Shown: positions 1,991-63,945 of the stretch, in pieces
How positions within the stretch are numbered: the stretch's first letter is position 1
Layout: each line of letters begins with the position of its first letter
Source of the DNA: Euglena gracilis
Taxonomy: Eukaryota
Assembly: GCA_039621445.1 (NCBI GenBank)
Contig: CP154954.1
Span: 6,111,693 to 6,175,692, forward strand
Direction: 5' to 3'
DNA length: 64,000 bases
Notes under the pieces: model-generated
What the model was told of the DNA's origin: nothing
What the model saw: the letters and a program-made list of their open reading frames with translations, nothing else
The model's database searches: none
Translations under genes and position numbers: made by a program

Positions 1991-4797
1991 TCACACAAGC
2001 TTCGCCAGGGCGGCTCCGACGTAGAGGGCGAGGAACATGAGCGGAAACGAGCCCAGGGCGGAGAGGTACGCCCCCGCCCGCCGCCCCTGCGGCCCGCCGC
2101 TGGCGTAGCCCCAGCCGTACAGGAAGCGCGCCGCCACCCACACGAGGCCCAGCGCCGCGGCGGCCTTGGGGCAGGGCTGCCGGGCGGAAGGGGGCAGGGG
2201 CCTGGATGGCTCCCGGCTGAGGAAGAGAGGGCTCTTCAAAATGCGGAGGCGATAAGTCTGGGTCTCCGGTACAAATTGTTCTGATCCGATACACCACGCA
2301 TGCCGTATCCCAAGGAGCCTGCAGGTCTGCGAGGTATGGGTACCTTCAGGGGTGAATCCATTTTGGGTCCCGGTTGGGAACACGAAACAACACAAAACAA
2401 GCGCATTCCCCTCAGAAATGGTCATTTTAGGGGACCCAGCACCTTGATGCCATAGCACTGCCCACCCCAAAAGCCCAGAGTGCAATAACGCCTTACTCCA
2501 ACTTTTCCAGTTAGTATTTAACTTTGAACTCCGAAAAATGCTTCCAGACATTTTTTTGAACCTGCAGATACCAAACGTGGTCCAAAATGGCCAAAAAAAA
2601 AGCCAAACAGGCCAAAAGTTGCTGGTTGGCAGGAAACCAGGCAAAAAAGAGAACGGAAATCAACTGCAGATGGGGTACTGGTGGAAATTTGTGAAAATTT
2701 CACATTTGGAAATGATCTTCTCACGCGGTGCACGCGGTGCGCCACGCGGTGCACGCGTTGCGGAAGCATCTCCATTGCAGGCTGTCACTCACTGCTGTTG
2801 CTGTGCATCCCCATGCATTTCTACGGTCTTTACGTCACAAAATGAGTGTAGGTTTGAGAATTGCCCTCCTTGGATTTGTCTTTTTTCCATCTGTGCTCAT
2901 ACGTGAACAGATTGTGCCAGCCCCCCCTCCCCCGGCTGTCAAAGCCCAATAACCATTGGAAAAGCCTGGGAAATTGTCAGGCTTCCCAGCACAAGCCAAT
3001 TTGTCACGGTCGGGGTGGGGTGCACCACGGATCCAATTTTTGCCAGGTCGAAGGCCAAGCCGGAAATTTTATTTCAGCGTTTTCGGTCGATTTTGGCTGG
3101 AGTTAGGGTGGGTGGGTGGGTGGGTGGGTGGGTGGTGGGCCCAGGGGGGGGGGGTCGTGGGTGTGTGGGTTTTCGAAAAAAGTGGGTGGGTGAATTTTGG
3201 CCAGGAAAATGCTCCCACCCCCGGGGAGCCACTAAGTGAATCTGTGCTGGCGAAAACACACAATTCAGGCCTCGATTAACATTTCACTGACTTTCACAAC
3301 CCATTGGTTTTTGGAACAAAGAAATATCTGTATCGTGTGGTTGGTGAACGCCAGCTTTCCAGCACCTAATATAATTGTCAGGAATTACAGTTAAAGAGTT
3401 AGCAGTTTGGCGTTAACCCCCAAAATAGACCGTGAAAAAGTAACACCCATTCCCGCTGCCCAAATTTAAACCCCCTGATGATGCTTTCAGACCAGCGCCC
3501 ACGCTCGGCGGCCCCCTCGGGGAACAGCAGCCCGTCTACCAACATCAGGATCTGGACGGGCCCCCAGGACTCCAGCGTATTGCGCCCAGGGCAGCTGGGG
3601 CAGGAAGGGGTGGCCGAGCAGCGAGAGGGGGGGAAATGTGCGCAATTTATGACCCCGACCAAGGCCATGGGGATAAGCCATGGGGATGAGACAAGATCTC
3701 ATTCAAATTTGAATTCATGCGAAGAGCACCACAAATCAAGGTTGACAAGGTTGGCTGCTGTGATCCGGGAGTCCCAGCTGGCCCATCATTGGGGGGGGGG
3801 GTGGGGGCAGGAATTGGCAGCGCGGCTGGTTCCAGACGCCGGTGAGAGGGATGACGCTTCGGTAGGGGGAGGGTGTCTGCCACAATGAGCCATTCCCCAG
3901 CCGGCCCTGGCCTTGGTGAGCGCGCTGGACGGAGTTGAACTTCTCGTGCTCCTTGTGCTCCCTGTCCCGGCATGGGCCCGTCCCACCTTGGCAGGGCCCC
4001 CAATGACAAAAGCCCAGGTGCCCCAGGAAAATGAGTCCCGTGACTGCTTTCCAAACCCTCCCAACATTTTCGTCACTCTCCGACCAGGCAAATGGATGGT
4101 GATGGGGAGGCCCTCTGCGCACAGGGGGGGGGGAGAGGTTGGATATTTTCAAGGGGTTTTTGGGCACCAATAAGTAGTACTGGAGGCATTTGGCCAGTAG
4201 GAAGGGTGGCACGCCAAACCTGGTGTGCCACCAAACGAAGATATGGAGGTGGGAAATGTGTATTCGAATATGGAGTGGTTCCGTTCCATGTTAACATAAC
4301 CAAAAAAATCAGAATTCTGCAACAAAAATCTATTTTTCCCCATTCACTCAAAGGGTGTGGGCCTCTTACCACCTGACTGTTGAGCCACGTGAGCAGTTCA
4401 GAGCGAATCGGGGCGTTTATGATGAGATGAACAACCAAATATTCCATTGCAAAGTTAAGGTGGCGAAACAGTCTGGAAACAAATCACCCCATTCCACACC
4501 TGTCATCCTTCACATCACATGAGCCATGGTTTTAATATGCCCAAACGGTCCCACAGGGTCCCACCTCACACATGTGCAACAGAACTGAAAAGCTGTAAGC
4601 TATCGTGCAGAAAGATGGTTGGTTGTGAGGAAGATGGTGTTTAGGGAGAACCCATGGGCGGCATACAGCGCCGGGTATGGCACATTGTACTTCTTGCGGG
4701 CGTTCATCACGAGGGTCATCAGGTACAGGTTGAGGAACCAGGAGAGGCCGATCACCAGCACCACGTACCCATACTCGTCCGGGATGGAGACAGCCAT
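1991..4797 (-). CDS. MGST3: MAPEG family microsomal glutathione S-transferase 3-like, 143 aa, 4 exons (4797-4660, 3966-3913, 3581-3519, 2167-1991)
   Basis: Joined exons read MAVSIPDEYGYVVLV...ARKKYNVPYPALYA|DREHKEHEKFNSVQRAHQ|NTLESWGPVQILMLVDGLLFP|KAAAALGLVWVAARFLYGWGYASGGPQGRRAG...LV*. This contains the MAPEG F-N-x-x-Q-R-A-H-Q-N-T-L-E and R-x-x-Y-x-x-G-Y motifs. All three introns are phase 0 and non-GT-AG. Confidence 0.93.
3582..3912 (-). other. Euglenid nonconventional intron (MGST3 intron 2)
   Basis: CAA|ggcCAGGGCcggctgggg ... ccccagctGCCCTGggcgc|AAT. Removal joins AHQ to NTLE in frame. Confidence 0.92.
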
Positions 4798-4827
4798 TTC
4801 GGGTGTGTTGGAGGGGAGATGAACGCA

Positions 4828-63200: not shown

Positions 63201-63945
63201 GTAACTTGGACCCTCAAAAAAAAAAAAAGACGGAAAAAAACACAGGAAAAAAAACATCAAAAACCCACAAATAAACGCAAAAAGACGCCAGCAGCATTTA
63301 AATTCCTTCAGGTGCATCCTCGAGATAATTTAGTTGTTTCACCTTCTCTGGGGTAAAAAATTTTTCATGGAACTAAACTTTGCTGCGTTTCGATTGGATT
63401 TTGGAAGCATGTTGTTTCTAAATCATGCAATTTGTTGTCCAAATTACAAAATTTGAGAAAAAATTGGTCTCATGGATAAAAATCGGGATCAAAGGGTGAC
63501 ATTTTTCCAAGCCAAAACACATTCTCCACATATAAAAACACATTTGTGTCACCCCCTCCTGTTTGTACTAAAAAAAAAAACTCAATCAGCAAAACTAGCA
63601 GGAAGGATAGTTGACTGAAGACAGCGATTCCACGACAATATCGGCCCACGAAGAACATGAAATTGCAGGAGTTTTTAGGCGCCGGGGTTCAGTGACGGCT
63701 CCGGGTTCCACCATGAGACCGGGTCCAGTTCAGGGACATGCACACATCCCCCGCCTGATCCCCCGCCCTTTCCGGCCCACCCTGTGCCTGGTGGTACTCC
63801 GGCATCATGGGGCTGTCGGGGTTGGCGAAGGCAGCGAGGACGGCCTCGATGTCCGCCCCCGGGACAAACACCGCCCGCAGGCAGTGTTGCCCGCCGCACT
63901 TTTGACGTAGGGCCAGGAGCTCAGGAGTTGGGTGTTGACCCCCAA
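54263..63945 (-). CDS. Second VASt domain plus Ser/Pro-rich linker (5' part lies beyond the window); probably the N-terminal part of the TRP gene
   Basis: Exons ~63945-63788 ...DIEAVLAAFANPDSPMMPEYHQ, 62720-62593 ARGDSRLSLGDW...AWAGQRQVTWES, 61699-61597 ...KLVVQHSSCTPG, 60982-60900 APYGTSFRVE, 60344-~60285 HVHFLQRTVMQRLIR, ~59122 onward STAGKELNKFNALLMEKA, 57641-57478, 56280-56117 and 54393-54263. The VASt part aligns motif by motif with the VASt domain at 17-23 kb. Confidence 0.8.
54584..55119. mobile_element. CAGGGGG...CCCCCTG MITE, 7(-8)-bp TSD
   Basis: actggac-CAGGGGGGAGGAAAAAATGCAACTTG ... CAAGTTGCATTTTTTCCCTCCCCCTG-actggac. Confidence 0.85.
55239..55660. mobile_element. CAGGGG...CCCCTG MITE with a perfect 8-bp TSD and internal cargo
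   Basis: cccccaac on both sides. Same family as 10055-10298, plus ~155 bp of extra sequence. Confidence 0.85.
56427..56590. repeat. Compound (AAT)n/(AAC)n microsatellite
   Basis: Seen directly in the sequence. Confidence 0.95.
56893..57251. mobile_element. TA-flanked poly-C/poly-G MITE
   Basis: TA-CCCCCCCCTATGTCCAA ... TTGGACATAGGGGGGGGGGG-TA. Confidence 0.8.

What the first reader, a model, noticed from the sequence alone, without database searches (positions are those of the whole stretch)
1991..63787. Most introns are non-GT-AG, defined by paired ends in a fixed 3+5 register
Seen: 18 introns restore the reading frame when cut 3 nt before a CAG-like triplet and 5 nt after its complement. 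They are 3582-3912, 6419-9783, 22529-22790, 34187-36183, 44350-44496, 44538-44779, 44900-46950, 47054-47456, 47575-48730, 48789-49117, 49200-49764, 51509-52303, 52475-54262, 54394-56116, 56281-57477, 60983-61596, 61700-62592 and 62721-63787. They range from 147 to 3365 nt and sit alongside ordinary GT-AG introns in the same genes (for example 28070-28882 and 17142-18470). Established: this is the euglenid nonconventional intron class, whose excision machinery is unknown. Standard gene finders would miss these genes.
Basis: partly seen in the sequence, partly recalled or inferred. Interest (0 to 1): 0.75.

Follow-up and report, generated by a model that had tools for sequence, protein, structure and literature searches.

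The report
Euglena nonconventional introns, already described
This stretch of Euglena gracilis nuclear DNA carries genes whose introns mostly lack GT-AG ends and are instead marked by base-paired ends at a set distance from the cut sites, a splicing code that was already published and tested genetically in 2025.

Summary
The window is Euglena gracilis nuclear DNA. One exon is 100% identical to EG_transcript_820. I found five genes, all on the minus strand.

A transcript-derived protein maps to 13 exons of a TRP-like channel gene, which gives 12 introns. None can be GT-AG. Ten of the 12 allow three Watson-Crick pairs between intron positions +4..+6 and -8..-6. Random placements gave a mean of 0.88 and a maximum of 5 in 2000 trials.

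- 8 confirmed at protein level
- 4 supported approximately by homologues
- 1 plausible but untested
- 2 with one end misplaced
- 1 refuted by an exon lying inside it
- 2 without any support

Motif plus open frame is not specific here. It gives 2235 pairs on the gene strand and 2136 on the other strand.

Of the introns I could classify, 23 are nonconventional and 9 are GT-AG; 8 are undetermined.

The register is 3 + 5 or 6, not strictly 3+5. That matches the published code 5'-N3CDG…CH'GN5-6|R (PMC12501133). The class call is right, the coordinate list is partly wrong, and nothing here is new. No read-level cDNA check was possible.

The parts
44112..53848 (-). 3' part (residues 794-1152) of a TRP-like cation channel gene: 13 exons, 12 introns
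   Evidence: Exact matches of P0002 (eukprot EG_transcript_820; Pfam ankyrin repeats plus Ion_trans) to 13 minus-strand blocks. Two residues differ in the exon ending at 52304.
52446..53792 (-). Nonconventional intron, GTG/CAC in the 3+5 register with a 5-bp helix.
   Evidence: It does not fit the CDG/CH'G wording of the published code.
51539..52303 (-). Nonconventional intron, CAG…CTG with a 6-nt 3' spacer.
50953..51428 (-). Nonconventional intron, CAG/CTG 3+5, 8-bp helix.
49844..50912 (-). Nonconventional intron, CTG/CAG 3+5.
49200..49764 (-).
48789..49117 (-).
47575..48730 (-).
47054..47456 (-).
44900..46950 (-).
44538..44779 (-).
44350..44496 (-).
44154..44263 (-). 110-nt nonconventional intron, CAGGCC/GGCCTG helix with 3+6 spacers, before the last exon.
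   Evidence: The boundary can slide over 6 protein-compatible positions.
6211..29653 (-). GRAM + VASt domain gene ('gene G'), about 17 introns of both kinds
   Evidence: tblastn of the E. longa ortholog P0013; Pfam GRAM and VASt hits on P0013.
22529..22790 (-).
23207..23365 (-). 159-nt non-GT-AG intron, ATG/CGT at 3+5 (2 Watson-Crick pairs + 1 G-U).
   Evidence: five equally scoring boundary options, none of them GT-AG.
11940..12056 (-). 117-nt nonconventional intron, CAG/CTG 3+5.
   Evidence: score 34 against a best of 36.
9841..11424 (-). Nonconventional intron, CGG/CCG 3+5.
   Evidence: the single best-scoring candidate (50 against 39).
6418..9783 (-). Last intron of gene G, helix CAGACC/GGTCTG.
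   Evidence: The acceptor is not resolved.
17142..18470 (-). The other GT-AG introns of gene G are 28997-29611, 28070-28882, 27496-27901, 22849-23150, 19936-22428 and 18601-19803.
   Evidence: a GT-AG option lies in or near the top-scoring set at each of the 7 joints.
34001..39844 (-). Histidine-phosphatase-family gene ('gene H') with 5 introns: 38938-39703 and 36772-37081 (or 36770-37079) are GT-AG; 36249-36702 is CAG/CTG 3+5; 34187-36183 is CAC/GTG 3+5; the intron near 37227-38880 is undetermined.
34187..36183 (-).
60851..64000 (-).
   Evidence: No transcript-derived protein was found.
1994..4797 (-). MAPEG-family gene with 4 exons. The other two introns are unresolved.

Best explanation
The window is Euglena gracilis nuclear DNA, and most of its introns are the known euglenid nonconventional (NC) introns.

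Shown here:
- The introns are absent from a transcript-derived protein.
- They cannot be given GT-AG ends.
- Their two ends are complementary. The helix starts 3 nt inside the 5' border and ends 5 nt (sometimes 6 nt) inside the 3' border. The first pairs are usually CAG/CTG, and the downstream exon usually starts with a purine.

Taken from the literature (PMC12501133): this cis code, 5'-N3CDG…CH'GN5-6|R, is necessary and sufficient for excision in vivo. The 5' spacer length is strict and the 3' spacer tolerates +1.

Inferred mechanism: the terminal helix brings the two cut sites together. An as yet unknown factor measures a fixed distance from the helix end on each strand, cuts, and the exons are joined. 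PMC12501133 cites work reporting that such introns leave as circles.

My preferred guess for the factor is a structure-measuring endonuclease plus an RNA ligase, not the spliceosome. The reasons are that there are no conserved borders, there is less polypyrimidine at the 3' end, and the introns share no internal sequence. The confidence below is for the class assignment, not for the machinery.
For: - Organism: the exon window:44779-44898 is 100% identical to EG_transcript_820.
- Twelve introns are defined by exact mapping of that protein. None of the 49 protein-compatible boundary options listed for them is GT-AG.
- Ten of the 12 have three Watson-Crick pairs at +4..+6/-8..-6. That is the highest cell in an 11x13 scan of registers. 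Random placements gave a mean of 0.88 and a maximum of 5 in 2000 trials.
- Ten of the 12 fit the published code: 8 with N5 and 2 with N6.
- Duplex folding of the first 30 and last 30 nt: z from -0.8 to -3.9 for the 14 supported NC introns, and from -1.0 to +3.2 for 7 GT-AG introns.
- Over 23 NC introns: C at +4 in 21, A at +5 in 18, G at +6 in 21, CCTG at -9..-6 in 15-18, and a purine as first exon base in 20. Several of these boundaries were chosen among sliding options so as to fit the register, so this count is partly circular.
- Pyrimidine share at -25..-4: 0.58 for NC introns against 0.70 for GT-AG introns.
- No sequence similarity between any two of the 23 NC introns.
- Literature read: PMC12501133 sections 4 and 12; PMC11170887 sections 6 and 10.
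Against: - There is no read-level cDNA evidence. Read laying returned nothing. Junctions are therefore known only at protein level, with 2-8 compatible positions each, and most are also slidable at nucleotide level. What is shown is the sum of the spacers (8, sometimes 9), more than the 3/5 split.
- Two of the 12 transcript-defined introns (GTG/CAC and CAG/TTG) do not fit the wording of the published code. One (44154-44263) has a pyrimidine at the exon start.
- Support for the gene C, gene H and MAPEG introns comes from homologues at 33-62% identity, or from none.
Confidence: 0.93

Rival explanations
1. The paired ends are chance inverted repeats picked out of a stop-poor genome. On this view the 'introns' are artefacts of searching for CAG…CTG pairs that leave a frame open.
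For: Pairs with N3-CDG, a helix of 6 bp or more, N5 and at least 25 open codons on both sides number 2235 on the minus strand and 2136 on the plus strand, where I saw no gene. Stop codons make up only 2.8-3.1% of codons in all six frames, and there are 203 ORFs of 110 aa or more.
Against: When introns are defined without any motif, by a transcript-derived protein, 10 of 12 still carry the pairing in that one register, against a null mean of 0.88.
Confidence: 0.03
2. They are ordinary spliceosomal introns whose true GT-AG (or GC-AG) borders lie a few bases from the reader's coordinates.
For: Nine introns in genes G and H are GT-AG. One GT-AG intron (18601-19803) also shows 3 complementary bases at 3+5.
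Against: For the 12 channel-gene joints, none of the boundary options that reproduce the protein is GT-AG or GC-AG. The same holds for 22529-22790 and 23207-23365 within the top-scoring options.
Confidence: 0.02
3. Same class of intron, but excised by the spliceosome. The terminal helix would replace U1 and U2AF recognition, instead of a separate endonuclease-ligase doing the work.
For: PMC11170887 section 10 notes that nonconventional introns in other species can be removed with or without the spliceosome, and that this needs experiment in E. gracilis. Both kinds of intron sit in the same transcripts.
Against: PMC12501133 argues from the cis code for factors distinct from the typical spliceosome, and it finds that hybrid introns are rare at 0.8%. 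NC introns here are poorer in 3' pyrimidines. This is weak evidence.
Confidence: 0.35

Closest known systems
Euglena nonconventional introns under the splicing code 5'-N3CDG…CH'GN5-6|R (Nomura et al., PNAS 2025, PMC12501133; sections 4 and 12 read)
   Same: Non-GT-AG borders. CAG/CTG (also CTG/CAG and CGG/CCG) at +4..+6 and -8..-6. A 3-nt 5' spacer and a 5-6-nt 3' spacer. Pairing that extends inward. A purine at the start of the downstream exon. Mixed with GT-AG introns in the same genes. A majority share: 23 of the 32 classifiable introns here, against 71.8% in E. agilis.
   Different: Nothing of substance. Two transcript-defined introns use GTG/CAC and CAG/TTG, which lie outside the paper's wording. 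The paper itself finds its pattern in only 61.2% of NC introns.
E. gracilis intron survey (Gao et al., BMC Genomics 2024, PMC11170887; sections 6 and 10 read)
   Same: Consensus CCAGG at +3..+7 and CCTG at -9..-6, terminal pairing in nonconventional but not in GT-AG introns, and 57% non-GT/C-AG introns (16,151 of 28,337). My position counts and duplex energies agree with all of this.
   Different: None found.
Conventional spliceosomal GT-AG introns
   Same: They interrupt the same genes, and their lengths overlap (302-2493 nt against 110-3366 nt).
   Different: They have GT…AG borders with a 'GTG' start (7 of 9) and a pyrimidine-rich 3' end (0.70 against 0.58), and they show no terminal duplex signal.
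Helix-guided, non-spliceosomal RNA splicing (bulge-helix-bulge cleavage by tRNA-splicing endonuclease; IRE1/RtcB splicing of HAC1/XBP1). Recalled, not looked up.
   Same: Cut sites set by distance from a helix and not by border sequence. A circular intron product is possible.
   Different: No bulge-helix-bulge geometry was shown here. No enzyme has been linked to Euglena NC introns in the papers I read. This is a resemblance only.

Membership tests
Euglenid nonconventional introns | Borders are not GT/GC-AG | tested here: met
   None of the protein-compatible boundary options listed for the 12 channel-gene introns is GT-AG or GC-AG. The same holds for 22529-22790 and 23207-23365.
Euglenid nonconventional introns | Absent from mature mRNA | tested here: met
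   Met at protein level only. P0002 (EG_transcript_820) residues 794-1152 map to 13 blocks with the introns left out. Read-level evidence could not be obtained.
Euglenid nonconventional introns | Complementary triplets at +4..+6 and -8..-6 (3-nt and 5-nt spacers; a 6-nt 3' spacer is tolerated) | tested here: met
   Ten of 12 have 3 Watson-Crick pairs at 3+5, against a null mean of 0.88. Both exceptions pair CAG/CTG at 3+6.
Euglenid nonconventional introns | Motif CDG…CH'G with complementary middle bases | tested here: met
   Ten of 12 channel-gene introns. The exceptions are GTG/CAC and CAG/TTG. Over 23 NC introns, C at +4 in 21 and G at +6 in 21 (boundaries partly chosen to fit).
Euglenid nonconventional introns | Pairing continues beyond the triplet | tested here: met
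   In-register helix of 3-9 bp in the 10 channel-gene introns that pair at 3+5, and 3-10 bp in genes G and H. Duplex z from -0.8 to -3.9, against -1.0 to +3.2 for GT-AG introns. For several single introns the effect is weak (z about -0.8).
Euglenid nonconventional introns | Purine as first base of the downstream exon | tested here: met
   Eleven of 12 channel-gene introns and 20 of 23 overall.
Euglenid nonconventional introns | Host is a euglenid nuclear genome | tested here: met
   100% identity to an E. gracilis transcript-derived protein and 77% identity to an E. longa ortholog.
Euglenid nonconventional introns | Excised as circular RNA | not testable with these tools
   Known only from the statement in PMC12501133 section 12, which cites earlier work.
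Conventional spliceosomal introns | GT-AG borders with a pyrimidine-rich 3' end | tested here: not met
   Not met by the 23 NC introns. Met by 9 other introns in genes G and H.
Self-splicing group I/II introns | Conserved catalytic core shared between copies | tested here: not met
   No Rfam family reached its threshold in the window. No blastn match between any two NC introns. Lengths go down to 110 nt.

The most novel reading that the evidence does not exclude
Competing terminal helices may give alternative nonconventional splicing. The donor at 52303 has two code-conforming acceptors. The one used in the known transcript (51539) has a 6-nt spacer and no in-register 3+5 helix. The other (51509) has a 7-bp in-register helix and would remove 10 residues ahead of the channel's membrane part. 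Likewise 52475-54262 (a 7-bp helix and a purine at the exon start) would skip the 19-residue exon 53792-53848. If these are used, the helix code would act as a switchable isoform system and not only as an intron marker.
Probability: 0.12. Interest if true: 0.4.

Novelty: already known. Interest (0 to 1): 0.15.

Why it matters
It matters little as a discovery. The class, the motif, the spacer lengths, the purine preference and the majority share of such introns in Euglena are all in print, and the code has been tested by knock-in mutagenesis (PMC12501133).

Two practical lessons follow. First, the first-stage reader recognised the right biology from raw sequence. Second, in this stop-poor genome the motif plus an open frame yields thousands of false candidates.

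The open question in the field is the enzyme that cuts at a measured distance from the helix. This window does not bring that question any closer to an answer.

Tried and rejected
No read-level junctions exist.
- The look-up of sequencing runs: no RNA holder listed. Nineteen small-share rows (0.07-0.13 of the words) were never laid, so they are not used as evidence.
- No whole genome is held for this window.
- Rfam found no family at gathering score.
- Earlier findings of this scan: none.
- The search for homologous proteins with the gene C exon 62595-62720: 5 candidates, none scored. Gene C therefore has no transcript support.
- P0012, the 100% hit to the GRAM exon, is an unspliced 134-aa ORF of the same DNA and says nothing about splicing.
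- Residues 1-793 of P0002 were searched for in 53849-64000 with exact 5-mers and a sensitive tblastn. Nothing was found.
Pieces of 20-71 aa are too short for that to count against them.
- Eight joints could not be classified: five in gene G (between P0013 residues 150/197, 212/222, 450/460, 492/505 and at 541), one in gene H (near 37227-38880), and the two other MAPEG introns.
- A test for recent transposon-like intron families found no similarity between the NC introns.
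Full report
**What the window is**

The window is 64 kb of about 50% G+C DNA with no Rfam match. All 18 reader intervals carry their motif on the minus strand: 3 nt plus a CAG-like triplet at one end, and the complementary triplet plus 5 nt at the other.

Translating the exon window:44779-44898 (minus strand) and searching the protein collection gave a 100% match over the whole query to eukprot EG_transcript_820 (P0002, 1152 aa). 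P0002 has ankyrin repeats and a weak Ion_trans hit. The EG_transcript naming is used for Euglena gracilis transcripts (passages in PMC10967724). So the DNA is E. gracilis nuclear DNA or something nearly identical to it.

**Genes**

I found five genes, all on the minus strand:
- a MAPEG-family gene at 1994-4797 (Pfam on exons 1 and 4);
- a GRAM+VASt gene, 'gene G', at 6211-29653. It was mapped with P0013, a 664-aa protein with a GGOE01 accession. That accession series belongs to Euglena longa (passage in bioRxiv 10.1101/573709);
- a histidine-phosphatase-family gene, 'gene H', at 34001-39844;
- the 3' part of the TRP-like channel gene at 44112-53848;
- the 3' part of a second VASt-domain gene, 'gene C', from 60851 to beyond the window end.

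**The motif-free test**

I had planned to lay RNA reads on the window, but read laying returned nothing. I used the transcript-derived protein instead.

Residues 794-1152 of P0002 match 13 minus-strand blocks exactly, apart from two substitutions in one exon. For each of the 12 joints I listed every pair of boundaries that reproduces the protein, which gave 2 to 8 options per joint. None of those options is GT-AG.

In 10 of the 12 joints, one option has three Watson-Crick pairs between +4..+6 and -8..-6:
- CAG/CTG in six;
- CTG/CAG in two;
- GTG/CAC in one;
- GCC/GGC in one (intron 44154-44263). There the longer helix, CAGGCC/GGCCTG, sits in a 3+6 register, so I take the 3+5 hit to be chance.

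CAG/TTG (47054-47456) has two Watson-Crick pairs and one G-U. Intron 51539-52303 pairs CAG/CTG only with a 6-nt 3' spacer.

A scan of all spacer combinations (0-10 by 0-12) put the maximum, 10 of 12, at exactly 3+5. Neighbouring cells on the same anti-diagonal are also high (9 at 2+6, 8 at 4+4) because the options slide. Random placements of the same lengths and numbers of options gave a mean of 0.88 and never more than 5 in 2000 trials.

So the core observation is real and far above chance. What is strictly shown is a total spacer of 8 nt (9 nt in two introns). Most of these introns can also slide by 1-2 nt, and two by up to 5 nt, without changing the mRNA.

**Folding**

The 14 supported nonconventional introns gave duplex z-scores from -0.8 to -3.9. 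Seven GT-AG introns of gene G gave -1.0 to +3.2. In-register helices are 3-9 bp in the channel gene and up to 10 bp elsewhere.

- Seven channel-gene introns (44350-44496 through 49200-49764) are confirmed.
- 22529-22790 fits the E. longa ortholog.
- The three gene C introns yield a product that aligns to the VASt domain of P0013 at E=1e-16, with no gap at the joints. No transcript-derived protein was found for gene C.
- 34187-36183 lies between two exons that are both homologous to P0014/P0016/P0017. It has the longest in-register helix among the 1184 frame-consistent candidates, but the poorly conserved region leaves its ends unfixed.
- 3582-3912 is plausible but untested at the joint.
- 6419-9783 joins the wrong frames. 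The upstream exon (NVLEPCDGR…, matched to the ortholog) ends on a codon border at 9784. Base 6418 is a third codon position in the frame that matches the ortholog's C-terminal membrane segment. 6418-9783 (3+6) or 6391-9783 (3+5) would join the right frames.
- 51509-52303 has its acceptor 30 nt too far downstream. The transcript and the homologues P0004 and P0007 keep those ten residues.
- 52475-54262 is refuted: an exon (53792-53848) lies inside it.
- 54394-56116 and 56281-57477 join open frames that have no Pfam hit and no counterpart in P0002.

- Four channel-gene introns: 52446-53792, 50953-51428, 49844-50912 and the 110-nt intron near 44154-44263.
- Three in gene G: 23207-23365, 11940-12056 and 9841-11424. 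The last uses CGG/CCG and is the single best-scoring candidate at its joint.
- One in gene H: 36249-36702.

Stop codons are depleted in all six frames, at 2.8-3.1% of codons. Pairs with N3-CDG, a helix of 6 bp or more, N5 and at least 25 open codons on both sides number 2235 on the gene strand and 2136 on the opposite strand. A code-conforming pair that keeps a frame open is therefore no evidence on its own.

**Census**

With independent evidence of some kind, 23 introns are nonconventional: 12 in the channel gene, 5 in gene G, 2 in gene H, 3 in gene C and 1 in the MAPEG gene. Nine are GT-AG: 7 in gene G and 2 in gene H. Eight could not be classified. 'Most introns are non-GT-AG' holds for this window.

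**Comparison with what is known**

PMC12501133 (sections 4 and 12 read) reports:
- 71.8% nonconventional introns in E. agilis, and a comparable share in E. gracilis;
- CAG and CTG motifs near the two ends, a strict 3-nt 5' spacer and a 5-nt 3' spacer that tolerates +1;
- a purine preference at the downstream exon start, and a need for pairing beyond the triplet;
- working CTG-CAG, CGG-CCG and CGG-CTG variants;
- fully synthetic introns that splice;
- the summary code 5'-N3CDG…CH'GN5-6|R, found in 61.2% of NC introns;
- that 84.4% of introns are 'slidable', and that the trans-acting factors are unknown.

PMC11170887 (sections 6 and 10 read) reports 28,337 E. gracilis introns, of which 16,151 are nonconventional. 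It gives CCAGG at +3..+7, CCTG at -9..-6, and terminal pairing that is absent from GT-AG introns.

My counts agree. Ten of 12 channel-gene introns fit the code (8 with N5, 2 with N6), and 11 of 12 are followed by a purine. Over the 23 NC introns the consensus is CAGG at +4..+7 and CCTG at -9..-6 (boundaries partly chosen to fit). Two searches of the paper library turned up no paper that names the enzyme.

**Mechanism**

- Shown: the cis anatomy, and the absence of these introns from the transcript-derived protein.
- From the literature: the code is necessary and sufficient in vivo, and circular products are reported.
- Inferred: the helix juxtaposes the two sites, and a factor cuts at a measured distance from the helix.

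The NC introns here share no internal sequence, go down to 110 nt, and have fewer 3' pyrimidines than the GT-AG introns. This argues against a ribozyme core and mildly against U2AF-type recognition. I favour a structure-measuring endonuclease with a ligase over a spliceosome-based route, but nothing here tests that.

**Verdict**

All of it is already published, so interest is low.

Noticed in passing
53849-64000 (minus strand): Residues 1-793 of EG_transcript_820, including its ankyrin repeats, have no match anywhere in the window. Yet a different gene on the same strand (gene C, stop codon near 60851) lies upstream of the first mapped channel exon. Gene C may be nested in a channel-gene intron longer than 10 kb, the locus may be a partial copy, or the assembly or the transcript may be chimeric.
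   Followed up: partly
whole window, all six frames: Stop codons make up only 2.8-3.1% of codons in every frame, against about 4.7% expected from equal base use. There are 203 stop-to-stop ORFs of 110 aa or more. Open frames are therefore weak evidence of coding in this genome.
   Followed up: partly
52304-52445 (minus strand): Two amino-acid differences from EG_transcript_820 (V for I and G for V in the stretch RLDL.VSAE.RQ), while about 340 other mapped residues are identical. This could be an allele, a strain difference or a near-identical paralog.
   Followed up: no
18601-19803 (minus strand): This GT-AG intron of gene G also has three complementary bases (GAC/GTC) in the 3+5 register. It may be chance, or one of the rare hybrid ('intermediate') introns described in the literature.
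   Followed up: no
51509 and 51539; 52475-54262: Code-conforming alternative acceptor and donor pairs with 7-bp in-register helices sit next to the sites the known transcript uses. They could be chance or alternative splicing.
   Followed up: partly
32500-33900, about 10300-10650, 56420-56700: Long simple-sequence arrays that read as [12 protein letters not shown] or poly-L ORFs. A short element inside intron 9841-11424 reaches a self-match depth of 209. Proline/glycine/tryptophan-rich pseudo-ORFs (the GGWVGG type) recur in several introns.
   Followed up: no
27833-28234 (minus strand): The protein collection holds a 134-aa unspliced ORF (P0012) identical to this DNA. It reads through the GT-AG acceptor at 28070 and past the donor near 27901. 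This is an example of a gene call that ignores the introns.
   Followed up: no
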